From positions 190,289-254,288 of the forward strand of contig PLNR01000005.1 of NCBI GenBank assembly GCA_003141835.1: a stretch of DNA of 64,000 bases, written 5' to 3'. A model generated the notes under the pieces. That model was not told the DNA's origin. It saw only the letters and a program-made list of their open reading frames with translations, and did no database searches. Position 1 is the first letter of the stretch. Every line of letters begins with the position of its first letter. The position numbers and the translations under genes are program-made. Positions 446-48,741 of this stretch are shown piece by piece. The DNA is from Candidatus Omnitrophota bacterium. Its GTDB lineage: Bacteria > Omnitrophota > Gorgyraeia > Pluralincolimonadales > Pluralincolimonadaceae.

Positions 446-549
446 TATTTTGAAATTTAAGTCTCACTCGGCCTTTTTTTATTACTCGCAGAAACCTATA
501 GCAACTGCGTCATAAACCGGCTCTTCGCGAGACGTTAAATTTCAAAATA
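446..549. repeat. AT-rich 20-21 bp inverted repeat (tattttgaaatttaagtctc ... gagacgttaaatttcaaaata) flanking a 63-nt GC-richer loop in the aroC-aroK spacer
   Basis: Arms at 446-465 and 529-549 are reverse complements apart from one bulged C. Confidence 0.65.
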
Positions 550-564
550 ACCGCATAGAAAGAG

Positions 565-21785: not shown

Positions 21786-22742
21786 ATGATGAAGCGGGCG
21801 AAGGAAGTACTCAGGATCGAGGCCGACGCGGTCTCCTCGCTTATAAAGCGGGTCGACGCGAATTTTGAAAAGGCGGTCAGGTTGATGCTTGCCTGCAAAG
21901 GCAAGGTGGTCGTGACCGGAATGGGAAAACCCGGCTTTATAAGCGCAAAAATTTCGGCGACATTGTCGTCTACCGGGACGCCCAGCCTATACCTGCATCC
22001 GGCCGACGCGATACACGGCGACCTGGGCAGGGTCACGAAAGACGATGTCGTCCTGGCCATATCGAATTCCGGAGAGACCGAGGAGATAATGAGGCTCCTG
22101 CCGACTTTAAGGAAGATCGGCGCTAAGCTCATAGCCATGGTAGGGAATACGGAATCCTCGCTCGCAAGGTACAGCGATGTCGTGCTTAACGTTGCGGTCA
22201 AGAGGGAGGCGTGTCCCCTGAACCTCGCGCCTACCGCTTCGACGACAGCGATGCTCGCCTTTGGGGATGCGCTCGCGATAGCGCTTCTCGACCGCCGCGG
22301 TTTTAAAGAAGAAGATTTTGCGTTCTATCATCCGGGCGGCTCCCTGGGCAAGAGGCTTATCCTCAAGGTCGGAGATATCATGAGGAAAGGCAAAGCAAAC
22401 CCTGTGGTGAAAGAGGACGAGAAGGTAAAGACCGTCCTCCTTAAGATAACCGAGGCGAGGGCCGGTTCGGCAGGCGTCGTTAACAAGAAAGGTGTTCTCG
22501 TCGGCATATTCACCGACGGCGACCTGAGGCGGCATCTGGGCAAGGACGCTGCACTCCCGCTCAGGCAGGTCAGGGAGGTCATGACCAGGAGCCCTATCAC
22601 GATATCGAAAGAGATGCTCGCCGCGGACGCGTTCCGGATCCTGCGCGAGAAGAAGATAGACGAGATACCGGTCGTCGATGGTAAGAGGAGGCCCATAGGC
22701 CTTGTCGACGTGCAGGACCTCCTGAAGGCGGGGCTCGTTTAG
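21786..22742 (+). CDS. kdsD: Arabinose-5-phosphate isomerase (KpsF/GutQ family, SIS + tandem CBS)
   Basis: SIS domain GKVVVTGMGKPGFISAKI followed by a CBS pair. Confidence 0.85.
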   Translation: MMKRAKEVLRIEADAVSSLIKRVDANFEKAVRLMLACKGKVVVTGMGKPGFISAKISATLSSTGTPSLYLHPADAIHGDLGRVTKDDVVLAISNSGETEEIMRLLPTLRKIGAKLIAMVGNTESSLARYSDVVLNVAVKREACPLNLAPTASTTAMLAFGDALAIALLDRRGFKEEDFAFYHPGGSLGKRLILKVGDIMRKGKANPVVKEDEKVKTVLLKITEARAGSAGVVNKKGVLVGIFTDGDLRRHLGKDAALPLRQVREVMTRSPITISKEMLAADAFRILREKKIDEIPVVDGKRRPIGLVDVQDLLKAGLV

Positions 22743-22743
22743 G

Positions 22744-23244
22744 ATGGATATCCGCGAAAGGGCAGCCGGGATAAAGCTGCTTATCCTGGACGTCGACGGC
22801 GTGATGACCGACGGCAGGATAATATACGACAACTACGGCGACGAATTCAAGGCGTTCGACGTGCAGGACGGATACGGCCTCACGCTGTGGTGGAGGGCCG
22901 GCTTGAAGTCCGCTATCGTGACCGCCAAGAAATCCCGCATAGTCTCCCGCAGGGGCAAGACCTGCCATATCACCAAGGTCTTCATGAACGCGAAAGACAA
23001 AGGCGCGGTCTATGAAAAACTCCTTAAGATCTTCAAGATCACCGACGCAGAGGCGTGCTTCATCGGTGACGACCTCATAGACATGCCCATTATGAAGCGC
23101 GCCGGCCTCGCCGTTGCTGTCCCGTACAGCCGGCCCGAGGTCAAAGCAGCCGCGCATTACGTCACCCAGGCCGGAAGCGGCCGCGGCGCGATAAGGGAGC
23201 TCATAGAGCTCATCCTCAAGACCCAGGGTAAGTGGCCGGAATAA
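22744..23244 (+). CDS. kdsC: 3-deoxy-D-manno-octulosonate 8-phosphate phosphatase
   Basis: KLLILDVDGVMTDGRIIY...FDVQDGYGL...GDDLIDMP HAD motifs of KdsC. Confidence 0.85.
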   Translation: MDIRERAAGIKLLILDVDGVMTDGRIIYDNYGDEFKAFDVQDGYGLTLWWRAGLKSAIVTAKKSRIVSRRGKTCHITKVFMNAKDKGAVYEKLLKIFKITDAEACFIGDDLIDMPIMKRAGLAVAVPYSRPEVKAAAHYVTQAGSGRGAIRELIELILKTQGKWPE

Positions 23245-23262
23245 GCTTCCTCCCAAAATACG

Positions 23263-23291
23263 TTGACAAAAAAATTCCACTCACGTATACT
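23263..23291 (+). promoter_or_regulatory. Sigma-70-type promoter with perfect consensus hexamers TTGACA-N17-TATACT upstream of the pilus/T2SS-like operon
   Basis: ttgaca at 23263-23268, 17-nt spacer, tatact at 23286-23291; AAGGAG RBS at 23348-23353 before the ATG at 23359. Confidence 0.6.
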
Positions 23292-23358
23292 ATTTAATTG
23301 GAACGAGTTAGCAATTTAAAAAGTCGTAAAAAAGCAGCCCTTCTTACAAGGAGTGTTG

Positions 23359-25056
23359 ATGCCGAAGGGAGAGAAGAAGTCTCTTGGCGAAGCCCTGGTA
23401 GAACGCGGCCTTGTTACTCCCGAAAAACTCAAGAAGGCGAAGGATGAGGCCGACAGGGCAAAAGAGCCGCTTCGCCGCGTCCTGATAAGGCTGGGCATGG
23501 TCGAAGAGGGTGCGATCATATCCTTTTTCGAGCAGCAGCTCGGCATCCCGCGCATAGATTTTTCGAATTATCTCCTGGATCCCAAAGTCGTCGATATCCT
23601 GCCCGAGAATTTCTGCAGAAAGAACATGATCATCCCGGTATTCAAGATAGGCGGGACGCTGACCATCGCCATGGTGGACCCGCTGGATATCTTTGTCCTC
23701 GACGAGGTCCGCCTTAAGACCAAATGCGAAGTAGAGCCGGTCGTTGTCCATGAGAGGGACCTCATCAGGATCTTCGACCAGTATTACGGCGCGCGGGGCA
23801 CGATGGACGACATCGTAAAATCCCTCGATAAGGATAAATTGCAGATAAAAGAGGGCGCAGAGACCGACATCAAGACGCTGCAGGGGCTCGTCGAGGAAGC
23901 GCCGATAGTAAAGCTCGTCAACCTCCTGATAAGCGAGGCGATAAAGGCAGGGGCCTCGGATATACACATAGAACCCGATGAGCTTTCCCTTGGGACGAGA
24001 TACAGGGTGGACGGCGTCCTCCATGAGGTGACTTCCCCGCCGAAGGACCTCCAGTCGGCGATAATTTCAAGGATAAAGATCCTCTCGGGGATGGATATCG
24101 CGGAGAGGAGGGTGCCCCAGGACGGCAGGTTCCAGCTGAAGATCGAGAATCGCCAGATAGACTGCAGGGTTTCCACCATTCCCACCGTTTACGGCGAAAA
24201 TGTGGTCATAAGGCTCCTCGACCTGAACAGCATACTTTTGGGGCTGAGCGACCTCGGTTTCTCCAGCGAGATGCTTCCGGTATATGAGAAACTTATACGC
24301 AAACCTTACGGCATAATCCTCGTCACCGGCCCGACCGGCTCCGGCAAGACGACCACGCTCTACTCCTCGTTAAGCACCATAAATTCACCGGAAAAGAATA
24401 TCGTGACGATAGAGGACCCGATCGAATACAGGCTGAAGCTCGTCCGGCAGATGCAAATAAATACGAAGGCCGGGCTCACCTTCGCGAACGGCCTGCGTTC
24501 CATCCTGCGGCAGGACCCGGATATCATAATGGTCGGCGAGATCCGCGACCTTGACACCGCCGAGATCGCGATACAGGCGGCGCTCACCGGCCACCTCGTG
24601 TTATCCACGCTGCATACCAATGACGCCCCCGGCGCGATCGCGCGCCTCGTGGATATGGGCGTCGAGCCGTTTTTGGTCAGCTCATCGGTCTCGGCCGTCA
24701 TAGCCCAGAGGCTCGTCCGCGTAATATGCAAGGATTGCAGGGAGAACTACGTCCCCTCCGCGAAATTATCGGAGGAGGTGGGCCTGTCATCATCCAAACA
24801 GGTAAAATTTTACCGCGGCAAAGGCTGCGATAATTGCCTGCACACCGGGTATAAGGGGAGGGTCGGCATATTCGAGTTGATGCTGCCCGACGACGTCATA
24901 AGGACGCTTACCGTCGCAAAATCCTCTTCCACCGAGATACGGAAGGCCGCTATCAAGGCCGGGATGAAGACGATGCAGCAGGACGGCATAGAGAAGGTCA
25001 AGGCCGGGATCACGACCTTGGAGGAAGTCTTGCGGGTCACCCAACAGGAAGAATAA
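23359..25056 (+). CDS. gspE: Type II secretion / type IV pilus assembly ATPase (GspE/PilB family) with N-terminal MshEN-like domain
   Basis: Walker A VTGPTGSGKTTT, Asp box, Walker B and tetracysteine CKDC...CDNC; N-terminal LGEALVERGLVTPEKLKKA...RLGMVEEGAIISF resembles the GspE-N/MshEN domain. Confidence 0.9.
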   Translation: MPKGEKKSLGEALVERGLVTPEKLKKAKDEADRAKEPLRRVLIRLGMVEEGAIISFFEQQLGIPRIDFSNYLLDPKVVDILPENFCRKNMIIPVFKIGGTLTIAMVDPLDIFVLDEVRLKTKCEVEPVVVHERDLIRIFDQYYGARGTMDDIVKSLDKDKLQIKEGAETDIKTLQGLVEEAPIVKLVNLLISEAIKAGASDIHIEPDELSLGTRYRVDGVLHEVTSPPKDLQSAIISRIKILSGMDIAERRVPQDGRFQLKIENRQIDCRVSTIPTVYGENVVIRLLDLNSILLGLSDLGFSSEMLPVYEKLIRKPYGIILVTGPTGSGKTTTLYSSLSTINSPEKNIVTIEDPIEYRLKLVRQMQINTKAGLTFANGLRSILRQDPDIIMVGEIRDLDTAEIAIQAALTGHLVLSTLHTNDAPGAIARLVDMGVEPFLVSSSVSAVIAQRLVRVICKDCRENYVPSAKLSEEVGLSSSKQVKFYRGKGCDNCLHTGYKGRVGIFELMLPDDVIRTLTVAKSSSTEIRKAAIKAGMKTMQQDGIEKVKAGITTLEEVLRVTQQEE

Positions 25057-25058
25057 AT

Positions 25059-26273
25059 ATGCCCCTCTATCGCTATAAGGCAAGAGACGGGATGGGAAAA
25101 CTGGTCGAAGGGGTCATGGAGGCCCCGGCCGAACCCGATCTCGTGGAAAAGCTGCGCAAGATGGGATATGTGATAACCGGGGTTTCGGCCGCCTCCGACA
25201 AGTTCTCTATCGGGGAATTCCTAGGCGGGTTCAGCAGCATAAATCCCGAAGACATGATCTTTTTTAATATACAGTTATCGAATATGCTCGATGCGGGATT
25301 ACCTCTTTTAACCTCGCTGCGCACCATCTCAGCGCAGACGGAGAACAGGACGCTGAAGAAATTACTCGAAGACGTCACGTTAAAAGTCGAGACCGGCTCT
25401 TCCCTGTCCGAGGCGCTTATGGCCCACCCGATGACTTTTTCGAGGCTTACGATAAGCATGGTCAAGGCTGGGGAAGCGAGCGGCAACCTGGGCCTTGTAT
25501 TGAAGAGGCTTGCCGATTTCGGCGAGAGCGAACTGGACCTCAGGCAGAAGGTCAGCGGAGCGTTATTATATCCCGCGGTCCTCTCCGTAGCCGCGACAGC
25601 AGTAATATTATTCATAGTGACGTTCATCATACCGAAGTTCGCGGACATATTCGTCAGGGCCAATATCCCGCTCCCGTTTGTCACGCGTATCCTCTTCGGT
25701 GCGGGGATGACGATAAAGGACTACTGGTACATTTTCGTCCTCGGTGCGACGGCATTATTCCTGGCCGCGCGGATATACGTTAATACCCGCGGCGGGCGTT
25801 TCAGGTTCGATGCCCTTAAACTCGCCATCCCGGTGGTCGGGCCGCTCATCCGCAAAGCGTCCATAGCGAAGTTCGCCCGGATGTTGTCCACCCTTTCGGC
25901 CAGCGGCGTGGATATACTCGAATCGTTGGAGATACTTGAGGTGACTATCGGCAATGAGGTCCTGTCGCGCGTGGTCGTGAAAGTGCGCGACGCGGTGCGC
26001 GGCGGCAGCAAGATATCCGAGACGCTGAGAGTGAGTGCGGAGTTCCCTCCGGATACTGTCCAGATGATCGCGGCAGGCGAGGAGACCGGCAACCTTGACG
26101 TCATGTTGAACAAGGTGGCCGATTTTTATGAGGCGGCCGTCGCTTACAATATAAAAAGGCTCACGTCCCTTCTCGAGCCGGCATTTTTGTTGATAATGGG
26201 TTGTGTCGTGGCCGTCATCATGGCTTCGATATTGGTACCGATGTTCGATCTGGTAAAAGTGTTAAGAAGGTGA
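25059..26273 (+). CDS. gspF: Type II secretion system protein F / PilC inner-membrane platform protein
   Basis: 404 aa, two GspF repeats with three TM segments; directly after the ATPase. Confidence 0.85.
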   Translation: MPLYRYKARDGMGKLVEGVMEAPAEPDLVEKLRKMGYVITGVSAASDKFSIGEFLGGFSSINPEDMIFFNIQLSNMLDAGLPLLTSLRTISAQTENRTLKKLLEDVTLKVETGSSLSEALMAHPMTFSRLTISMVKAGEASGNLGLVLKRLADFGESELDLRQKVSGALLYPAVLSVAATAVILFIVTFIIPKFADIFVRANIPLPFVTRILFGAGMTIKDYWYIFVLGATALFLAARIYVNTRGGRFRFDALKLAIPVVGPLIRKASIAKFARMLSTLSASGVDILESLEILEVTIGNEVLSRVVVKVRDAVRGGSKISETLRVSAEFPPDTVQMIAAGEETGNLDVMLNKVADFYEAAVAYNIKRLTSLLEPAFLLIMGCVVAVIMASILVPMFDLVKVLRR

Positions 26274-26350
26274 TGGTTGATGTATATGCATCAACCAGAA
26301 TAGTAGATGTTAGCCATCTACTATGAGTGGTAGATGTTCACCATCTACCA
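26274..26350. promoter_or_regulatory. Three tandem 9-bp-arm palindromes (half-site T[GA]GT[TA]GATG) in the gspF-pilin spacer
   Basis: tggttgatg-tatatg-catcaacca (26274-26297); tagtagatg-ttagc-catctacta (26301-26323); tggtagatg-ttcac-catctacca (26328-26350); centres ~27 bp apart. Confidence 0.6.
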
Positions 26351-26371
26351 TCAACAAAAGGAGGAAGTAAG

Positions 26372-26830
26372 ATGAGGAAGGGGTTTACGCTTGTAGAACT
26401 TCTTATCGTCATCATGGTCATCGCGATATTGATAGGCATCGCGCTGCCGAGGTTCGGGGGTATGCGCGACGAGGGCAACACGACCAAGGCTGCCGCGGAG
26501 TTGAGGACATTGCAGGCCGCGGTCGAGTCGCGGTATATGCACACCAACCCGCATGCTTACCCGGTAGCCGGTGGTACCTGGGAGACAGCGTTGACGTTGA
26601 CGACGGTCGTGCCGCAGATAATCGGCGCTCCCCTGTATGACCCGTTCGGCGCTAACTCGACGACGCAGTACAGATATGCGCTCAACGGCGCATATTATGT
26701 CATATGGTCTCTCGGGCCCAACAGGACGTCCACGATAACCGGCATCAGCGCCACAGGAACGGTGGCCCCGGCCGCTACAGGCGACGACATATTCGTCTCG
26801 AACGGCACGCCTGGTTCGGGAGGTTTTTGA
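26372..26830 (+). CDS. gspG: Major pseudopilin / type IV pilin (GspG-like), prepilin-type N-terminal cleavage/methylation domain
   Basis: MRKGFTLVELLIVIMVIAILIGIALP class III signal; strong RBS AAAGGAGGAAG upstream. Confidence 0.85.
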   Translation: MRKGFTLVELLIVIMVIAILIGIALPRFGGMRDEGNTTKAAAELRTLQAAVESRYMHTNPHAYPVAGGTWETALTLTTVVPQIIGAPLYDPFGANSTTQYRYALNGAYYVIWSLGPNRTSTITGISATGTVAPAATGDDIFVSNGTPGSGGF

Positions 26831-26833
26831 CCT

Positions 26834-27202
26834 TTGTTCAAAGTCGGCGCGCGCGGTTTTACGCTGATAGAGATCCTGATCGTGATCGCTTTTTTTGCGG
26901 CAGGCGCGGTAGTCCTTTTGCAGATATTCAGCATGGGGCTTTACGGCAGCGTCGATAATGAGAATACCATGATAGCTACCGCGCTTGCGCAGGAGAAGAT
27001 GGAAGAGATGCGCAATGAGCCTTATACCTCGATAGTGCCCGAGGTACGCGCGCAGGTCCCGAATTATACCTCCTTTGACAGGGAGATACTGGTCACCGCG
27101 CCGGTATCTAACCTTAAGCAGGTGACGGTCAATATCTACTGGAACGGGAAGACCGGCGACGTGAAGATATCATTGGTTACGTATGTATCGAATATCATTT
27201 AA
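26834..27202 (+). CDS. Minor pseudopilin (GspI/PilV-like), prepilin-type N-terminus; TTG start
   Basis: GFTLIEILIVIAFFAAGAV N-terminal methylation motif; 122 aa. Confidence 0.65.
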   Translation: MFKVGARGFTLIEILIVIAFFAAGAVVLLQIFSMGLYGSVDNENTMIATALAQEKMEEMRNEPYTSIVPEVRAQVPNYTSFDREILVTAPVSNLKQVTVNIYWNGKTGDVKISLVTYVSNII

Positions 27203-27704
27203 GGGCAGGCCGGGTTTTACCGTAGCGGAGCTTATAATCGCTTCGGCGCTCGTATCGGTCTTGATGGGCGCCATACTGATAACTTTCGTTATCGGGCTGA
27301 AGATATGGGGCTCGGAAATGACGAGGACCGCTTTCATAAAAGATATCTCTTATAGCATGCAGGTCATATCTGAGGACCTGAGGCAAGCGACTTCTTTTGT
27401 CCCGGTCACAAACAGGAACAGGATAGGTTTCCTCGCGGATGTCAACGGGGACGGTTCTCCCGAGACTGTCCGGTATAGCGTCGCCGGCGGAAATCTCCTG
27501 CGCACACAAAACGGCACCGCGACGCCTGTCCTGGCAAGGAACGTGCAGGCCATTACGTTCAGGTATTACAGGCCCGACGATAACATTAACCCGATGGGTG
27601 TTGTGAACCGGGCGCAGATAAGGGTCGTCGAGATAGATCTCGTGCTGACGAACGGGAGCGAGTCCATGCAATTCACTACCAGGGTCAGGCCGAGGGGGAT
27701 ATGA
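27183..27704 (+). CDS. Minor pseudopilin (GspJ/PilW-like), prepilin-type N-terminus
   Basis: GFTVAELIIASALVSVLMGAIL motif; 173 aa. Confidence 0.6.
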   Translation: MYRISFKGRPGFTVAELIIASALVSVLMGAILITFVIGLKIWGSEMTRTAFIKDISYSMQVISEDLRQATSFVPVTNRNRIGFLADVNGDGSPETVRYSVAGGNLLRTQNGTATPVLARNVQAITFRYYRPDDNINPMGVVNRAQIRVVEIDLVLTNGSESMQFTTRVRPRGI

Positions 27705-28117
27705 GCAGACGCGGTTTTGTGTTGATAATGACATTTATATTTATGCTGGCCCTTGCGGCCATAGCAATGGTTACGCTCTCGCTCGTCTCATCCAATACGA
27801 GGTTCACGGGATCCCAGCTTGACGGAACAAAGGCGCTATACCTGGCGCAAGCCGGGATTGAAAGCGTATTAAGGAGCGTCCGCGACGGGCACACGCCGCC
27901 GTCACTGCCTCCGGCCATAACGCTCGGGGACGGGACGGTGGAATACCTGTCGGTAGGCTTTCCCGCTCCGAATACATTAAACATAGACCTGCTGGGCAAG
28001 ATCCCGGTTGATTCCTCATCGGGAAAAGAGATAAAAGCGCACGTAGTCGCAGTTTATTCGGACACAGGCAACGGCAAATTTACTACCTGCGCTTCCTGGA
28101 AAGAGAATTACGAATGA
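27701..28117 (+). CDS. Minor pseudopilin (GspK/PilX-like)
   Basis: RRGFVLIMTFIFMLALAAIAMVTLSLVSS...ALYLAQAGIE, typical of the PilX/GspK N-terminus. Confidence 0.55.
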   Translation: MSRRGFVLIMTFIFMLALAAIAMVTLSLVSSNTRFTGSQLDGTKALYLAQAGIESVLRSVRDGHTPPSLPPAITLGDGTVEYLSVGFPAPNTLNIDLLGKIPVDSSSGKEIKAHVVAVYSDTGNGKFTTCASWKENYE

Positions 28118-29553
28118 TGAACTTTAAGAAAAAAGATACCTATATCGGGGTAGATTTCGGTTTCTCTGCGATAAAGGCCGTCGAGATAGAAGCCGGTCCG
28201 GCCGGAGAACTCATTTTAAAGAGGGCGACCCTCGTCCCGAAAGAAGAAGGGGTAAAGAAGGCCGTTGCCGGAATGCCCGTAAGATCGGCCAGGGTCAATG
28301 TCGTCGCAGATTGCCCGGAAGGCTGCCTGCGCTATTTCACGCTCCCGAAGATGTCGGACCGGGAGATACCCGAGGCGGTTAGGTGGCAGGTGAAAGAGAA
28401 GGCATCCCTTCCGCTTGACGAGCTCCTTATGGATTATAAACTGCAGGATATCGTTGAGGCCGGCGTAAGCAAATACAAAGTAAAACTGGCCGTGATGCCG
28501 GCAAAGTCCGTTGACGGCGTCGTAAGGCTCATGGGCGAGGCGGGCATCAGCCCGGTCGCCCTCTTCCCGCCGCCGCTTGCCATAGAAAAACTTTCGGGCC
28601 GCATGGGCCTGAAACGGGACGAGACCGTTGCGATCGTGGATATCGGGAATGACAGTACCGGGATAAATATCATAAAGGGTAACTCCCTTGTTTTTGCAAG
28701 GAAGGTCAATCCGGGCGGCGCGGCGATCACCAAAGACCTTAACCGCCAGGCGGCGGAACGGCTGGTCCGGGAGATCGAGAGGTCATTCCATTACTATGGT
28801 GACGAATCATCCGGTGACAAGGTCAGGTCGCTCATCCTTACAGGAGGCGGCGCGGCGATCAAAGGGCTGGCCGGGTTTTTACAGGAGAACCTCGGTGTCC
28901 CTGCCTCGGAAGGCGATCCTTTTAAGGGGATCACTTTGGAAAAGGGCGCGCTCGCCGATCCGGCATGGCCGGCCGGAGCCTTCGCCAATGCCATAGGCGC
29001 TGCTTTAAGCGAAGGACGGGGGATCAATCTCCTGCCTCCGGAATTGAAACAAAAGACTATACGAATGTTCGAGAAGGCCGCAGTCGAGTCGGTAATAGCG
29101 GCGGTGGCCGTTTCCCTGGTCCTCTCTTTTATCGGCATCAGGATGCAACTCTCCAACTATGATAAGAAGATAGCTTACGCGACGGGAGAACTGACCGCCA
29201 TGAAGCCGCAATTGGAGATAGCTGCCCATTACGAGCGCATGGCCAGGGAGCTCTCCGAAAGGAATGCGTTCGTCTATTCGGTCTCCTCAGGTATCCCGCC
29301 GTGGAAAGAGGTGCTGAAGGAGCTTAGTAACAGGCTCCCGAAATACGCGGTCCTCTCGGGCCTGAAGGCGGACGCGGGTAGTTTAGAGATAAACGGCCAG
29401 GTCACAGGTGACGTAAAGGACCGCGAAAAAGCCCTATCCGGCATCATAAAGTCGCTTGAGGGAGGCATGTTCAAGAACGTGACGCTCGTGAACGCCAAGA
29501 TGGGCGAGGGCACGAATTCAAATACGGAGTTCGATATAAAATGCTCGTTCTGA
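28114..29553 (+). CDS. pilM: PilM-PilN fusion (actin-like ATPase-fold assembly protein fused to a bitopic PilN-like segment)
   Basis: N-terminal ~330 aa PilM/GspL-like (IGVDFGFSAIKAVEIE...), then a TM (VIAAVAVSLVLSFIGI) and a coiled-coil PilN-like C-terminus. Confidence 0.7.
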   Translation: MMNFKKKDTYIGVDFGFSAIKAVEIEAGPAGELILKRATLVPKEEGVKKAVAGMPVRSARVNVVADCPEGCLRYFTLPKMSDREIPEAVRWQVKEKASLPLDELLMDYKLQDIVEAGVSKYKVKLAVMPAKSVDGVVRLMGEAGISPVALFPPPLAIEKLSGRMGLKRDETVAIVDIGNDSTGINIIKGNSLVFARKVNPGGAAITKDLNRQAAERLVREIERSFHYYGDESSGDKVRSLILTGGGAAIKGLAGFLQENLGVPASEGDPFKGITLEKGALADPAWPAGAFANAIGAALSEGRGINLLPPELKQKTIRMFEKAAVESVIAAVAVSLVLSFIGIRMQLSNYDKKIAYATGELTAMKPQLEIAAHYERMARELSERNAFVYSVSSGIPPWKEVLKELSNRLPKYAVLSGLKADAGSLEINGQVTGDVKDREKALSGIIKSLEGGMFKNVTLVNAKMGEGTNSNTEFDIKCSF

Positions 29554-30125
29554 AAAAAATGGGATCTTTTAAGGAGAACAAGGCGGCGATCGTCGTCATC
29601 TCGGGGATCGTCGTATTCATTGTCCTGTTCGCGGTGATCTTCGCCCCGGCGAGGAAGGACCTGGCCGGGAAGAAGGAGATGTACCGGGAACTGGAAGTCC
29701 AGCTTACCGACGGCCGGAATAAACTTTCCGCGGCCAAATCGGACAAGGCCGGTGTCGAGGCGAAAGTCGGGGAGCTGCGCAGGCGGCTTCCTCCGAAGAG
29801 CCCGACGGCGGCGATACTGGAGGAGTTGTCGAAGAAAGGGAAGGGGCTCAATATAGATTTCATTTCGATATCGCCCCAGCCTGCCGAACCGCTCCCGGAC
29901 GTCTCCGCAGCATTCAACTGCAAGGCGCTGCCCATAACCATAAAAATGAAGGCGGCCTATAAGAGCCTCGGGGATTATCTCGGGTCGCTGGATAACCTCG
30001 AGAGCAGTTTTGTGACCGTCCCGGAATTACAGGTCGCAAAAGACGAAAGGACATTCCCGAAACTGACGGTAGATATGAAGGTTTACACGTATATCCTGGA
30101 AGAGGCCGAAAGTGGACAAGAATAA
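29541..30125 (+). CDS. pilO: PilO/GspM-like inner-membrane pilus assembly protein
   Basis: N-terminal TM plus coiled coil plus C-terminal PilO-like domain; position after pilMN. Confidence 0.6.
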   Translation: MLVLKKMGSFKENKAAIVVISGIVVFIVLFAVIFAPARKDLAGKKEMYRELEVQLTDGRNKLSAAKSDKAGVEAKVGELRRRLPPKSPTAAILEELSKKGKGLNIDFISISPQPAEPLPDVSAAFNCKALPITIKMKAAYKSLGDYLGSLDNLESSFVTVPELQVAKDERTFPKLTVDMKVYTYILEEAESGQE

Positions 30126-30525
30126 ACAGCAATTAGCCGTTCTTGGAGTAGTCATCGCGATATTTATTGTCGTCACCGCGATTGCCGTCCTGAAGCCGCG
30201 CGCCAAAATACCGGAACAGGCAAAAGCCGTTCCTGCGGCCGCAGCCCCGGTCCAAAAGCCCGCCCCCCAGAGAGAGCGGATGGTAAGCTCATTCAACTCC
30301 TGGGGCAGGGACCCGTTCGCGACCGGCGGCGGGTCTGCGGAACAGGGCGGACCGGCGTCGCTCAGCGGGATCTTCTGCGACTCCAAGAAAAGCTACTGTA
30401 TAATAGACGGCAAGGTGGCGAAGGTGGGCGACGAGGTCTCGGGATACAAGATATTGGAGATAACGAAGGATACCGTTACCGTCAAGGCCGGTGATGAGAT
30501 AAGGACGCTCAGAATAGGCCATTAA
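30112..30525 (+). CDS. pilP: PilP-like small membrane-anchored protein (Ala/Pro-rich linker plus C-terminal beta domain)
   Basis: TM, AAAAPVQKPAPQ linker, C-terminal IIDGKVAKVGDEVSGYKILEITKDTVTVK pattern resembling the PilP beta-sandwich. Confidence 0.45.
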   Translation: MDKNKQQLAVLGVVIAIFIVVTAIAVLKPRAKIPEQAKAVPAAAAPVQKPAPQRERMVSSFNSWGRDPFATGGGSAEQGGPASLSGIFCDSKKSYCIIDGKVAKVGDEVSGYKILEITKDTVTVKAGDEIRTLRIGH

Positions 30526-30528
30526 AAC

Positions 30529-30557
30529 TTGACTGGGGGCCTATCTTCTGCTATCAT
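30529..30557 (+). promoter_or_regulatory. Candidate promoter TTGACT-N17-TATCAT upstream of lpxL
   Basis: Hexamers at 30529-30534 and 30552-30557; only ~8 nt before the GTG at 30566, so possibly leaderless or the true start lies downstream. Confidence 0.3.
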
Positions 30558-30565
30558 AACGCGTT

Positions 30566-31462
30566 GTGAAGCACAGAATCAGGAGAAGGTATCTTTACTA
30601 CCTTCTTAGGACAGCCAGTTTTATCTCGCTTCTCTTCCCGATAAAAATTAACAAATTTTTAGGCAGGCGGATGGGGGAGTGCGCCTTTTTTTTGGTGCCC
30701 GCCCACAGGAAGAGCGCGATAGAGAACCTAAAGGTAGCGTTCAAAGGAGAGAAGACCGAAGCCGAGATAAGGGCCATCGCCAAGGGGATCTTCCGCAATT
30801 TAGGCGAGAACCTTTTTGAGATATTAAGCGCTTCTAAACTGACCCCTCGGAACATAGACAGGCACGTCAGGATAAGAGGCCTCGATATAGTAGACAAAGC
30901 TCTTTCACAGAAGAGGGGTTTTATCGTCCTTTCGGCGCATTTCGGCAATTGGGAGCTCCTTGCCGGATGGTTCGGCCTCAAGAAATATCCGGTGAATGTC
31001 CTCGCCCGGAGGCTGCGTTACGAAAAATTCGATGATTGGATAAACAGCCTGCGCCGGAAGATGGGCGTCAACGTCGTGATGAGGGACGAGTCGCCCAGGA
31101 CGATCCTTAAGCTGCTGAAGGACGGGCAGTCGATAGCTATCCTTGCCGACCAGGACATCTCCTCCGTCGAGGGGGTTTTTGTGGATTTCTTCGGGCATCC
31201 GGCTTATACGCCGACAGCTCCGGTCATCCTAGCCCTCGCCACGGCCGTGCCGATAATACCGATGTTCATCGTGCGCGAAGGCAACAGCCACACCATATAC
31301 GTCGAGGAGCCGCTCGAGCTCGAGATAACCGGCAACAAAGAGAACGACATAAAAGTAAATACGGAAAAATGGTCTAAGGTCGTCGAATCGTATATACGGA
31401 AGTACCCGTCGCAATGGGTCTGGGTCCATAACAGGTGGAAGACGAAAAATGAAGATAACTAG
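30566..31462 (+). CDS. lpxL: Lipid A biosynthesis (Kdo)2-lipid IVA acyltransferase, LpxL/LpxM family
   Basis: HFGNWELLAGW...LADQD...YPSQWVWVHNRWK LPLAT/LpxL motifs. Confidence 0.8.
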   Translation: MKHRIRRRYLYYLLRTASFISLLFPIKINKFLGRRMGECAFFLVPAHRKSAIENLKVAFKGEKTEAEIRAIAKGIFRNLGENLFEILSASKLTPRNIDRHVRIRGLDIVDKALSQKRGFIVLSAHFGNWELLAGWFGLKKYPVNVLARRLRYEKFDDWINSLRRKMGVNVVMRDESPRTILKLLKDGQSIAILADQDISSVEGVFVDFFGHPAYTPTAPVILALATAVPIIPMFIVREGNSHTIYVEEPLELEITGNKENDIKVNTEKWSKVVESYIRKYPSQWVWVHNRWKTKNEDN

Positions 31463-32243
31463 AAGCGGGTTGGCCGTCGCGTTGTTAACTGCGTTCCTGT
31501 TCACAGGATGTGAGAGCAAACAGGCGAAGGCGCCGGCCCCGTCCCAGGCCGACCTGGAGGCGAACCTCTCCGGCGACCAGAAGATGATGGCCTTCTCGCT
31601 CTCCGGTTTCGAGAAGACAGGCAAGAAGAAGTGGGAGGTCCAGGGCAAATCTGCGGATATCGTCTCCGAGGTGGTCAACCTCACCGATGTAGTCGCGAAA
31701 GCCTACGGCGACCAGACCGACATGACGCTTACGGCCGACAAGGGCTCATTCAACAGGGCGACCAACGACGCGCATTTCGAGTCGAACGTAGTAGTCAGCG
31801 GCACGAACGGCACGGAGATGAAGACGGACGCCCTGGATTGGAAGAACACCGACCAGAAGGTCACCACCGATAAGCCGGTCGTGATGAAATCCGACGCGAA
31901 GGGCAAGGGAAGCGCCGAGCTTGCGACCAAGACGCCCACGACGATAACCTGCGACGGGCCGATGGAGATAGATTACGGCAAGAGCTATGCCGTCTTTAAC
32001 AAGAACGTCAAGGTCGACGATGACCGCGGGCAGCTGTTTTGCGACATGGCAACCGCTTATTACGATACCAAGACGAAGCAGGTCTCAAGGATAGTAGCTA
32101 AGGGCAACGTGAAGATAATGCGGGAAGGCAGCTGGACGTACAGCGACGAGGCGACATACCTCGCGCCTGAGCAGAAGGTCATCCTCACGGGTTCTCCGAA
32201 AGTGATGATCTATCCCGATCAGAAGAAGGCCGCGCAAAAATAA
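31449..32243 (+). CDS. LptC/LptA-family (OstA-like) periplasmic LPS-transport lipoprotein
   Basis: Lipobox LFTGC, beta-jellyroll-like repeats (...GNVKIMREG...LTGSPKV), located immediately upstream of lptB. Confidence 0.6.
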   Translation: MKITRSGLAVALLTAFLFTGCESKQAKAPAPSQADLEANLSGDQKMMAFSLSGFEKTGKKKWEVQGKSADIVSEVVNLTDVVAKAYGDQTDMTLTADKGSFNRATNDAHFESNVVVSGTNGTEMKTDALDWKNTDQKVTTDKPVVMKSDAKGKGSAELATKTPTTITCDGPMEIDYGKSYAVFNKNVKVDDDRGQLFCDMATAYYDTKTKQVSRIVAKGNVKIMREGSWTYSDEATYLAPEQKVILTGSPKVMIYPDQKKAAQK

Positions 32244-32258
32244 GGATCTACTGAGGTA

Positions 32259-32981
32259 ATGCACCTCCTCGAAACGAAGGGCTTACAAAAGACGTATAAC
32301 CGCCGCCGCGTAGTCAACGGTGTCGACATATCGGTCAAACGCGGCGAGATCGTGGGCCTGCTCGGGCCTAACGGCGCCGGGAAGACGACGTCCTTTTATA
32401 TGATAGTCGGCCTGGTCGAGCCGGATAAGGGCCAGATATTCTTTGATAACCAGGACATAACCGGCCTGCCGATGCACAGGCGCGCCCGCTGCGGCATAGG
32501 ATACCTCGCGCAGGAGCCGTCGATATTCAGGAAGCTTACCGTCGAGGAGAATATCATGGCCATCCTCGAGACGCTCAAGATATCCAAGAAGGAACGCCGT
32601 AAGAGGCTCGAGATGCTTTTGGGCGAATTGAGGATATCGCACCTGGCCAAGAACTACGCTTATACATTGTCGGGCGGCGAACGCAGGCGCCTGGAGATTA
32701 CGCGCGCGCTCGTGACCGAGCCCACTTTTATTTTGTTGGATGAGCCGTTCTCGGGCATAGACCCGATAGCGGTGGCTGAGTGCCAGGAGATAATCTGTTC
32801 GCTGAGGGAAAAAGGGCTCGGCATACTTTTGACCGACCATAATGTGCGCGAGACCCTTTCCATAACAGACAGGTCGTATATAATGTCCGACGGAAAGGTC
32901 CTTATATCCGGCACCGCGGAAGAACTCATATCCGATCCGAAGGCAAGGCAGATCTATCTGGGCGAAAAGTTTAGGATGTGA
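32259..32981 (+). CDS. lptB: LPS export ABC transporter ATP-binding protein
   Basis: Walker [21 protein letters not shown] signature, Walker B ILLDEP; 240 aa as in LptB. Confidence 0.9.
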
Positions 32982-32998
32982 GCAACGAAGTTGCTCAC
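32978..32998 (+). terminator. Perfect 9-bp stem / GAA-loop hairpin overlapping the lptB stop (no U-tract); a second hairpin lies at 33027-33043
   Basis: gtgagcaac-gaa-gttgctcac; atcgac-ttt-gtcgat. Confidence 0.35.
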
Positions 32999-33057
32999 CC
33001 TAAGAATGTTTCAGGAAGAAGAGGGTGATCGACTTTGTCGATTAATAAGGAGGCAAC

Positions 33058-33615
33058 ATGAACGTAGTCATCACAGGCAGGCATTTTGACGTCACCGAAG
33101 GAATGAAGGCCCACGTAAACGACAAGATAACGAAGCTGGACAAGTTCTCCCAGAAGATAGTCGAGGCGCACGTCATACTCGAGGTCGAGAAATTCCGCCA
33201 CATAGCCGAGATCACCGTCATCGGAAAACAATTCAAACTGACCGCCACCGATACGACCTCGGACATGTATGCCTCCATGGACGGGGCGATCGCCTCCCTT
33301 GAGAAACAATTAAGGAAATTGCACGACAGGGTCAAGGAACACAGGGTAAAGGGCTCGGCGGGCAGGATACAGGAACTCGCCGTAAGGTCGATATCGGCCA
33401 TCAAGGGCGTATTCAGGCCGGCCAGGGAGAGCTCTGCGGGCCCCAGGATAGTCGAGACCCAGCGCGTCGCCGAGAAACCGATGTCGGTCGAGGAGGCCGT
33501 GGAGGAGCTGAAGATATCGAACAGCGAGTTCATCGTCTTCAGGAACGCGGACGACAACAAGGTGGAAGTAATATATAAGAGAAAGGACGGAGACTTCGGC
33601 CTGATTAAGACCTGA
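33058..33615 (+). CDS. hpf: Ribosome hibernation promoting factor (long form)
   Basis: MNVVITGRHFDVTEGMKAHV... sigma-54 modulation / S30AE family plus C-terminal extension. Confidence 0.9.
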   Translation: MNVVITGRHFDVTEGMKAHVNDKITKLDKFSQKIVEAHVILEVEKFRHIAEITVIGKQFKLTATDTTSDMYASMDGAIASLEKQLRKLHDRVKEHRVKGSAGRIQELAVRSISAIKGVFRPARESSAGPRIVETQRVAEKPMSVEEAVEELKISNSEFIVFRNADDNKVEVIYKRKDGDFGLIKT

Positions 33616-48708: not shown

Positions 48709-48741
48709 AAACGTCGTCCTCATCATCCGGGGACGACGTTT
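48709..48741 (+). terminator. Stem-loop (11-bp stem aaacgtcgtcc/ggacgacgttt) after the OmpA-family gene, followed by a T-rich tract
   Basis: Inverted repeat 48709-48719 / 48731-48741 followed by tgattatc. Confidence 0.45.

What the first reader, a model, noticed from the sequence alone, without database searches (positions are those of the whole stretch)
26274..26350. Array of three tandem palindromes with a shared TAGATG / GTTGATG half-site just upstream of the major pseudopilin gene
Three near-identical hairpin or operator-like elements (9-bp arms, 5-6 nt spacers) sit on ~27-bp centres between the gspF stop and the pilin RBS. The arrangement resembles a triple operator for a dimeric regulator. 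As RNA it could be a set of stem-loops that stabilise, process or attenuate the abundant pilin transcript relative to the gspEF message. The motif was not seen elsewhere in the window.
Basis: seen in the sequence. Interest (0 to 1): 0.55.

Follow-up and report, generated by a model that had tools for sequence, protein, structure and literature searches.

The report
Variable stem-loop array before pilin gene
Three near-identical perfect hairpins sit between the pilus-machinery gene gspF/pilC and the major pilin gene of an uncultivated Omnitrophota bacterium; they are real and their base pairing is under constraint, but the closest relatives lack them, so they are most likely an optional RNA stem-loop cassette of a well-known kind and not a regulator binding site.

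Summary
Three perfect palindromes (9-10 bp stems, 5-6 nt loops, 27-nt spacing) fill the 98-nt spacer between the gspF/pilC stop and the pilin start. A fourth, orphan 3' half-site follows them. They are tandem duplicates of one unit and occur nowhere else in the window.

Orthologous loci decide the interpretation. Copy number is 3 here but 0 in the closest relatives (95% and 91% GspF identity, 18-nt spacer). It is 2, 1 and 1 in relatives at 88%, 88% and 82%. Unrelated hairpins occupy the same spot in more distant orthologues.

Stem sequence changes between copies but pairing is kept: 96% of cells are paired, 5 of 10 pairs change on both sides, and none change on one side only. No promoter, U-tract terminator, Rfam family or dispersed copies were found.

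This argues against an operator, a terminator or a classic REP family. It favours sense-strand RNA stem-loops inside a polycistronic pilus mRNA, which separate the decay (and translation) of machinery and pilin cistrons, as in malEF, puf and papBA. That function is inferred, not shown. A DNA-level, self-symmetrising palindrome expansion with little function remains the main rival. This is a new member of a known kind, of modest interest.

The parts
23263..23291 (+). Promoter-like site (TTGACA-17-TATACT) upstream of gspE/pilB. It is the only sigma-70-like site on the + strand between 23263 and 28415.
   Evidence: 11 of 12 matches. No other + strand site lies before 28415, so the pilin gene is inferred to be co-transcribed with gspEF.
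23353..25056 (+). gspE/pilB-type assembly ATPase
   Evidence: T2SSE 7.7e-143 and MshEN 2.4e-23.
25059..26273 (+). gspF/pilC-type platform protein. Its TGA stop abuts P1.
   Evidence: T2SSF 4.3e-60; orthologue series in Candidatus Omnitrophota.
26274..26297 (+). Hairpin P1: TGGTTGATG-TATATG-CATCAACCA
   Evidence: I3.: -13.7 kcal/mol, z = -5.0. Orthologous P1-type hairpins in L083 and L086 have different, compensated outer stems.
26300..26324 (+). Hairpin P2: ATAGTAGATG-TTAGC-CATCTACTAT, a tandem duplicate of P3
   Evidence: I6; D1: 27-nt direct repeat, 81% identical.: -11.6 kcal/mol, z = -5.6. Present only in the window lineage.
26327..26351 (+). Hairpin P3: (G)TGGTAGATG-TTCAC-CATCTACCA(T). The outermost pair is a G.U wobble.
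   Evidence: I7.: -13.5 kcal/mol. Identical core in L083 and a decayed copy in L003.
26349..26355 (+). Orphan 3' half-site CATCAAC overlapping the end of P3. It is complementary to the 5' arm of P1.
   Evidence: GTTGATG on the - strand. (I4: 26271-26282 pairs with 26342-26353, 92% complementary).
26358..26364 (+). Shine-Dalgarno sequence AAGGAGG, 7 nt before the pilin ATG and unpaired in all predicted folds
   Evidence: The SD-bearing tail of about 20 nt is what remains in hairpin-free orthologues.
26372..26830 (+). Major (pseudo)pilin gene, 152 aa, MRKG|FTLVELL
   Evidence: N_methyl; public gene calls use this start. The in-frame GTG at 26327 listed runs through P3 and is probably spurious.

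Best explanation
The array is a lineage-specific cassette of three sense-strand RNA stem-loops in the intercistronic spacer of a polycistronic gspE-gspF-pilin-minor pilins-pilMNO transcript.

It arose by tandem duplication of a 27-nt hairpin unit that sits directly after the gspF stop codon.

The stem-loops most likely act as a decay barrier and spacer. They stop exonucleases, or 5'-end-dependent decay, from moving from one segment of the mRNA into the other. They also move the pilin ribosome-binding site about 80 nt further from the terminating gspF ribosome.

The result would be that the level of the abundant pilin message is set independently of the low-abundance machinery message. I lean towards protection of the downstream pilin segment, as in papBA. 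The alternative is protection of the upstream segment, as in malE-malF REP or puf.

The element is modulatory and not essential.

**Shown:** the structure, its position, its variable copy number and the constraint on pairing.

**Inferred:** co-transcription, any effect on stability or translation, and the direction of protection.
For: **Position**
- The array lies between co-oriented cistrons, with no promoter-like or terminator-like site in or around the spacer.
- Close relatives have only 18-22 nt between the two genes, so co-transcription is the default.

**Stability**
- Each hairpin folds at -11.6 to -13.7 kcal/mol and the array at about -39 kcal/mol, z = -4.7 to -7.9.
- The Shine-Dalgarno sequence and start codon stay unpaired.

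**Pairing, not sequence, is maintained**
- Across six copies, 96.4% of cells are paired.
- 5 of 10 pairs change on both sides and 0 change on one side only.
- 0 of 500 shuffles reach the covariation score, and slid registers give only 21-51% paired.
- Loops and linkers diverge while stems stay paired. Simulated unconstrained substitution keeps all pairs with P of about 0.007-0.05 per comparison.

**Recurrence of structure at the same place with unrelated sequence**
- L170 carries CCCGACG/CGTCGGG.
- L004 carries CGTTTACCGT/ACGGTAAACG.
- L008 carries a 26-pair helix that is 8 kcal/mol more stable on the sense strand.
- In every case the hairpin starts 0-4 nt after the stop codon and the SD-bearing tail is left intact.

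**Wobble pairs**
- P3's outer pair is G.U where P2 and L083 have A-U. That is compatible with pairing in the + strand RNA only.

**Precedent for both protective modes**
- malEFG and puf use 3' structures. papBA yields a major-pilus-subunit mRNA protected by a 5' hairpin after RNase E cleavage (PMC5927463).
Against: - There are no expression data of any kind.
- The element is missing in the nearest relatives (95% and 91% GspF identity) and in L088, L168 and L169. Any function is therefore dispensable.
- All stem differences are full Watson-Crick swaps, including transversion swaps (GC to CG, AU to UA), with no G.U intermediates inside the stems. This fits DNA-level arm-to-arm templating as well as RNA selection.
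- Strand asymmetry of folding energy is negligible for the window array: -38.8 versus -38.7 kcal/mol.
- No RN|WUU-type RNase E motif is evident next to the hairpins (by eye, against the motif given in PMC5927463).
- The RNase repertoire of this organism is unknown.
Confidence: 0.45

Rival explanations
1. DNA-level palindrome expansion with little or no function. A short quasi-palindrome after the gspF stop is made perfect by intrastrand template switching. It is then amplified and deleted in 27-nt steps by replication slippage between direct repeats. The spacer is simply one of the few places in this compact genome that tolerates insertions.
For: - The distribution on the GspF tree is patchy: 3, 0, 0, 1, 2, 1, 0, 0, 0 copies.
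- Changes come in whole units.
- P2 and P3 are a 27-nt tandem duplicate.
- All stems are perfect Watson-Crick, with only double-sided changes and no G.U inside the stems.
- Folding energy is the same on both strands.
- The genome has very few intergenic spacers.
- The decayed single copy in L003 shows relaxed constraint.
Against: - Hairpins of unrelated sequence recur at the same 0-4 nt offset from the stop codon in L170, L004 and L008.
- Three copies have diverged in their loops, yet none has lost a single pair.
- L008 shows sense-strand G.U pairs.
- Template-switch symmetrisation is an assumed mechanism here and was not observed.
Confidence: 0.25
2. A low-copy REP-like or miniature palindromic mobile element has inserted after gspF and been reiterated head-to-tail. 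Any mRNA effect would be a by-product, as for REP/BIME elements.
For: - Unit size is 23-27 bp and stems are 9-10 bp.
- The location is just downstream of a coding region between unidirectional genes.
- The copies are clustered in tandem.
- Sub-variants carry alternative complementary stem residues.
- A GTAG tetranucleotide is present in P2 and P3.
- All of these are listed as REP features in PMC3733652. That paper also reports REPs in PVC-group phyla.
Against: - GTAG is inside the stem and paired with CTAC. It is not an unpaired terminal tag, and P1 has GTTG.
- There are no further copies in the 64-kb window or in 132 kb of related loci, by pattern or by covariance model.
- None of 79 metagenome hits to the P2/P3 core lies in an Omnitrophota-like or pilus context.
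- No transposase was found among the 26 window proteins scanned.
- No other repeated palindrome family is visible in the window.
Confidence: 0.12
3. A partial transcription terminator or attenuator lowers read-through from gspEF into the pilin genes.
For: Three consecutive stable hairpins lie in the sense transcript directly after a stop codon. Some phyla use hairpins without U-tracts as terminators (own knowledge).
Against: - No T-run follows any hairpin. P3 is followed by TCAACAAAAGG.
- The consensus scan finds no terminator there.
- The genome's own terminator-like hairpin at 48709-48741 has a 13-bp GC-rich stem and a U-tail, unlike these 33-45% GC stems.
- The pilin gene has no promoter of its own and the major pilin is needed in excess, so attenuation here would be counterproductive.
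Confidence: 0.08
4. An operator array in DNA binds three dimers of a sequence-specific regulator, or a recombinase.
For: Three palindromes with 9-bp arms and 5-6 bp centres sit at a regular 27-bp spacing, and they share the GT[TA]GATG half-site.
Against: - No promoter lies nearby.
- No regulator or recombinase gene is in the cluster.
- The half-site is not conserved among orthologous hairpins, whereas complementarity is.
- The array is absent from the closest relatives.
- The half-site is at background frequency elsewhere (12 outside the array versus 9.5 expected for the whole window) and never palindromic.
- The central regions differ between copies (TATATG, TTAGC, TTCAC), which is incompatible with recombination between core sites.
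Confidence: 0.07

Closest known systems
Intercistronic mRNA stability stem-loops (malE-malF REP, Rhodobacter puf hairpins, E. coli papB-papA)
   Same: - Stable stem-loops lie between cistrons of one operon whose products are needed in different amounts.
- In papBA the stabilised downstream cistron encodes the major pilus subunit (PMC5927463).
- Here the position, sense-strand stability, free RBS and compensated stems all match.
   Different: - No processing or half-life data exist for this locus.
- There are three tandem copies of one unit, not a single structure or a REP pair.
- Copy number ranges from 0 to 3 among close relatives.
- There is no sequence similarity to any of these elements and no Rfam hit.
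REP/BIME elements (GTAG-tagged palindromic repeats)
   Same: - The unit is a 20-40 bp palindrome with 6-13 bp stems.
- It lies downstream of an ORF between unidirectional genes.
- It forms head-to-tail clusters.
- Sub-families carry complementary stem changes.
- REPs have a proposed role in mRNA stabilisation (PMC3733652).
   Different: - The defining unpaired GTAG or CGTC tag is absent.
- High copy number and dispersion were not found in 64 kb plus 132 kb.
- No RAYT gene was seen.
Quasipalindrome correction and slipped-strand tandem duplication (mutational processes)
   Same: - The arms are perfectly symmetric.
- All arm differences are double-sided.
- Gain and loss occur in 27-nt units.
   Different: These are mechanisms of origin, not functions. 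They do not explain why unrelated hairpins recur at the same offset in distant orthologues.

Membership tests
Intercistronic mRNA stability/processing stem-loop (malEF-REP, puf, papBA class) | Lies inside a polycistronic unit, between cistrons, with no promoter or terminator of its own | tested here: met
   no promoter-like or terminator-like site in or near the spacer; relatives have 18-22 nt spacers. Co-transcription itself is inferred.
Intercistronic mRNA stability/processing stem-loop (malEF-REP, puf, papBA class) | Stable stem-loop in the sense transcript | tested here: met
   -11.6 to -13.7 kcal/mol each, z about -5. The array folds at -38.9 kcal/mol.
Intercistronic mRNA stability/processing stem-loop (malEF-REP, puf, papBA class) | Pairing conserved through compensatory change | tested here: met
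   96.4% paired, 5 of 10 pairs with double-sided changes, 0 of 500 shuffles reach the score. P = 0.007-0.05 per comparison. Only six copies were available, some of them paralogous.
Intercistronic mRNA stability/processing stem-loop (malEF-REP, puf, papBA class) | Processed 5'/3' ends at the structure and different half-lives of the flanking segments | not testable with these tools
   Needs RNA-seq, end mapping or rifampicin decay data.
REP/BIME (GTAG/CGTC-tagged) | 20-40 bp palindromic unit with a short stem, downstream of ORFs | tested here: met
   Criteria taken from PMC3733652.
REP/BIME (GTAG/CGTC-tagged) | Unpaired GTAG or CGTC tag at one end | tested here: not met
   GTAG in P2 and P3 is inside the stem and paired with CTAC. 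P1 has GTTG. The flanks are GA, GAG and TCAAC.
REP/BIME (GTAG/CGTC-tagged) | High copy number, dispersed over the genome | tested here: not met
   No other copy was found in 64 kb or in 132 kb of related loci. The whole genome was not available, so a low-copy family is not excluded.
REP/BIME (GTAG/CGTC-tagged) | Associated RAYT (Y1 transposase) gene | tested here: inconclusive
   None among the 26 window proteins scanned. The rest of the window and genome were not scanned.
Intrinsic (Rho-independent) terminator | G+C-rich stem followed by a U-tract | tested here: not met
   One search finds no site in the spacer. The stems are 33-45% GC and no T-run follows them. Contrast 48709-48741.
Operator for a dimeric transcription factor | Overlaps or adjoins a promoter | tested here: not met
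   The nearest promoter-like site on the + strand is about 3 kb upstream.
Operator for a dimeric transcription factor | Half-site sequence conserved in orthologous loci | tested here: not met
   the stems covary; the site is absent in the closest relatives.
Any Rfam family | Match to a curated covariance model | tested here: not met
   only noise at E = 6.8; 0 hits at the gathering score over the whole window.

The most novel reading that the evidence does not exclude
The spacer between the gspF/pilC stop codon and the pilin ribosome-binding site is a hotspot in Omnitrophota. Hairpin cassettes would be repeatedly gained, duplicated and lost there, acting as a fast-evolving copy-number 'rheostat' for the pilin-to-machinery expression ratio. 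Alternatively, a so far undescribed tiny palindromic element might target the stop-codon-proximal position of this gene specifically.
Probability: 0.12. Interest if true: 0.55.

Novelty: new member of a known kind. Interest (0 to 1): 0.3.

Why it matters
If the hairpins do set the relative stability or translation of pilin versus assembly-machinery cistrons, this locus gives a natural allelic series of 0, 1, 2 and 3 hairpins in otherwise 88-95% identical operons. That series could be used to study how operon stoichiometry is tuned after transcription in an uncultivated phylum. Otherwise it is an ordinary intercistronic stem-loop or palindrome expansion. It is useful mainly as a caution that regular arrays of palindromes are not necessarily operators.

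Tried and rejected
- **Metagenome-wide scan** for GTAGATGTTNNCCATCTAC. It gave 79 hits, and none lies next to a gspF or pilin homologue. Many are the start of an unrelated gene on the other strand in high-GC soil contigs. The scan did not recover the known JGI locus L083, so it says little about dispersion.\n- **Tandem Repeats Finder** on 26150-26450. It returned no rows because the array is too short and too diverged for its score.\n- **Rfam**, with permissive and gathering thresholds. Nothing was found.\n- **Recombination as the cause of the patchy distribution**. Block-wise nucleotide identity of gspF and the pilin 5' end shows L085, L083 and L003 about equally close to the window near the spacer (90-95%), so there is no clear breakpoint.\n- **Strand asymmetry of folding** to separate RNA from DNA pairing. 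It is uninformative for the window, L083 and L086; only L008 favours the sense strand.\n- **Sigma-70 and sigma-54 promoter inside the array.** The scan found none. By eye, TGG-N11-GC in P1 is off by one from the GG-N10-GC spacing and is not conserved in L083.\n- **Tyrosine-recombinase core sites.** Rejected because the central regions differ between copies and no recombinase gene is nearby.\n- **An N-terminally extended pilin starting at GTG 26327**. Rejected because relatives with 18-nt spacers and all public gene calls use the ATG at 26372.\n- **Missing DNA.** Three informative loci (P0001, P0003, P0012) were available only as gene coordinates, without sequence.

Full report
**1. What is in the sequence**

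The 98-nt spacer between the TGA stop of a gspF/pilC-type gene (25059-26273) and the ATG of a pilin gene (26372-26830) holds three perfect palindromes:

| Hairpin | Coordinates | Sequence |
|---|---|---|
| P1 | 26274-26297 | TGGTTGATG-TATATG-CATCAACCA |
| P2 | 26300-26324 | ATAGTAGATG-TTAGC-CATCTACTAT |
| P3 | 26328-26350 | TGGTAGATG-TTCAC-CATCTACCA |

- Their centres lie 26.5 and 27 nt apart.
- P2 and P3 form a 27-nt tandem direct repeat, 81% identical.
- P1 has the P3 stem with one swapped pair.
- A seventh, orphan half-site (CATCAAC, 26349-26355) overlaps the end of P3.
- A Shine-Dalgarno sequence, AAGGAGG, follows at 26358-26364.

**2. More than chance**

- The window holds five distinct perfect hairpins with stems of at least 9 bp and loops of 3-8 nt. 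Three of them are these, and shuffles give 1.6.
- As RNA, the array folds at -38.9 kcal/mol (z = -4.7; 0 of 200 shuffles fold as well) and leaves the SD free.
- The single hairpins fold at -13.7, -11.6 and -13.5 kcal/mol.
- This is the most structured intergenic spacer in the window.
- The motif is not found elsewhere in the window by pattern.
- A covariance model run without filters gives a next-best hit of E = 0.3, inside a coding region.

**3. Context**

- The genes are a T2SSE ATPase, a T2SSF platform protein, an N_methyl pilin, two or three minor pilins (one with PilX_N), a PilM-PilN fusion and PilO.
- All lie on the + strand and are tightly packed.
- They sit downstream of the only good promoter-like site, 23263-23291, which matches 11 of 12 positions.
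- No promoter-like or terminator-like site lies in or near the spacer.
- The organism is a Candidatus Omnitrophota bacterium, judged from the source names of the GspF homologues.
- The identical locus was assembled from at least two independent samples, with an identical spacer.

**4. Comparative evidence**

A graded series of orthologous loci was recovered. The table places them with their GspF identity to the window; the order on an NJ tree comes.

| Locus | GspF identity | Spacer | Hairpins |
|---|---|---|---|
| window | 100% | 98 nt | 3 |
| P0001 (sister of the window) | 95% | 18 nt | 0 |
| P0003, L085 | 91% | 18 nt (AAGAAAGGGGGAAGCAAG) | 0 |
| L003 | 88% | 46 nt | 1, decayed: GGTAGATG-TTAGGG-CAGCTACC |
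| L083 | 88% | 71 nt | 2: GCGCTTGAC-ATATGC-GTCAAGCGC, plus a core identical to P3 |
| L086 | 82% | 48 nt | 1: ATACTTGATG-CGTGGG-CATCAAGTAT |
| L169, L168, L088 | 78-79% | 18-22 nt | 0 |
| P0012 | 77% | 49 nt | no DNA available |
| L170 | 74% | 41 nt | 1, unrelated: CCCGACG-ATG-CGTCGGG |

- Further out, L004 (53%) has a perfect 10-bp hairpin of yet another sequence.
- L008 (50%) has a 115-nt spacer that forms a 26-pair helix.
- When a hairpin is present, it starts 0-4 nt after the stop codon, and the SD-bearing tail of about 20 nt is preserved.
- The element is therefore dispensable and changes in whole units. Structure at this position recurs without any sequence conservation.

**5. Constraint on pairing**

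- The six related copies were aligned.
- 96.4% of cells form standard pairs.
- 5 of 10 pairs change on both sides and none change on one side only.
- No shuffle out of 500 reaches the covariation score, and slid registers give only 21-51% paired.
- Between P2 and P3 there are five differences. Two are in the loop, two are a compensated pair, and one turns A-U into G.U.
- Under unconstrained substitution, all pairs survive with P of about 0.015 for that comparison.
- For the other three comparisons P is 0.05, 0.01 and 0.007.
- The flanks are 90-95% identical among the close relatives, yet about 10 of 24 positions of P1 differ between the window and L083.
- Complementarity, not sequence, is what is kept.

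**6. What this excludes**

*Operator*
- There is no promoter nearby.
- The half-sites are not conserved.
- The array is absent from the nearest relatives.
- No regulator gene lies in the cluster.

*Terminator or attenuator*
- The stems are 33-45% GC with no U-tract.
- The genome's own terminator-like hairpin at 48709-48741 has a 13-bp GC-rich stem and a U-tail.
- The pilin gene has no promoter of its own.

*Classic REP/BIME*
- Size, stem length, position after an ORF, tandem clustering and complementary stem variants all resemble REPs as defined in PMC3733652.
- But the defining unpaired GTAG/CGTC tag is missing, because GTAG here is inside the stem.
- No other copies exist in 64 kb of this genome or in 132 kb of related loci.
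- The metagenome scan gave only chance or coding hits, although it also missed the known L083 locus and is therefore weak.
- A low-copy family cannot be excluded without the full genome.

*Known RNA families*
- Rfam has nothing.

**7. Best explanation**

- The array is a set of sense-strand RNA stem-loops inside a polycistronic pilus mRNA.
- It acts as a barrier and spacer that uncouples decay, and probably translation, of the low-abundance machinery cistrons from the high-abundance pilin cistron.
- Two protective modes are documented (PMC5927463). One is 3' structures that protect upstream segments (malEFG, puf). The other is 5' structures that protect a downstream segment after endonucleolytic cleavage (papBA, where the protected cistron encodes the major pilus subunit).
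- The direction here is unresolved. I lean towards protection of the pilin segment on stoichiometric grounds, which is inference.

Two facts keep the main rival alive, namely a DNA-level, self-symmetrising palindrome expansion with little function:
- All stem changes are full Watson-Crick swaps, with no internal G.U.
- Both strands fold equally well (-38.8 versus -38.7 kcal/mol).

**8. Verdict**

- The operator reading is not supported.
- The RNA stem-loop reading is the most likely, but it remains untested.
- This is a new instance of a well-known kind of element.
- Its distinguishing feature is copy-number variation (0-3) among close relatives, which makes a natural allelic series.
- Interest is modest.

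Noticed in passing
window 21786-33615: The pilus cluster (gspE to pilO, a 137-aa unknown protein and an lpxL-like acyltransferase) sits between kdsD-kdsC and lptC/A-lptB-hpf. In many Gram-negative bacteria (own knowledge) the conserved order is kdsD-kdsC-lptC-lptA-lptB-rpoN-hpf. No rpoN lies between lptB and hpf here, and no secretin gene is adjacent to the pilus genes.
   Followed up: partly
window 32978-32998 and 33026-33044: Two different hairpins (GTGAGCAAC-GAA-GTTGCTCAC and GATCGAC-TTT-GTCGATT) lie in the 76-nt spacer between lptB and hpf. This is a second co-directional spacer carrying tandem stem-loops, unrelated in sequence to P1-P3.
   Followed up: partly
window 446-555: A long AU-rich inverted repeat with arms of about 20 bp (ATATTTTGAAATTTAAGTCTC ... 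GAGACGTTAAATTTCAAAATA) encloses about 60 nt between two + strand ORFs. It folds at -33 kcal/mol, z = -4.1. There is no Rfam match and its nature is unknown.
   Followed up: no
window 48709-48741: A canonical terminator-like hairpin (13-bp GC-rich stem, then UUUGAUU) lies between co-directional genes. It shows that this genome does use classical intrinsic-terminator shapes.
   Followed up: partly
L008, the 115-nt gspF-pilin spacer (locus coordinates not recorded; sequence and fold): In this distant orthologue the spacer is built from reiterated heptamers (AGCGTWW on one side, WWACGCT on the other). They form a 26-pair helix that is 8 kcal/mol more stable on the sense strand.
   Followed up: partly
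L004, the 65-nt gspF-pilin spacer (locus coordinates not recorded; sequence): A perfect 10-bp hairpin, CGTTTACCGT-ACAGA-ACGGTAAACG, is followed by a second copy of its 3' arm (GTTC-ACGGTAAACG). This extra 3' arm mirrors the orphan 3' half-site after P3 in the window.
   Followed up: no
L087 (contig ena:ERZ27313048:k141_1140278): The assembly ends 10 nt after the gspF stop, exactly where hairpins occur in the relatives. This may be an assembly break at a repeat or palindrome.
   Followed up: no
window 26327-26371: An in-frame GTG at 26327 extends the pilin ORF by 15 codons through P3; the ORF list shows this version as 167 aa. L083 has a similar open frame through both of its hairpins. The extension is probably spurious, because public gene calls and relatives with 18-nt spacers use the ATG at 26372.
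   Followed up: partly
window 28114-29553: PilM and PilN appear to be fused in one 479-aa protein: PilM_2 at residues 47-212 and PilN at residues 400-478.
   Followed up: no
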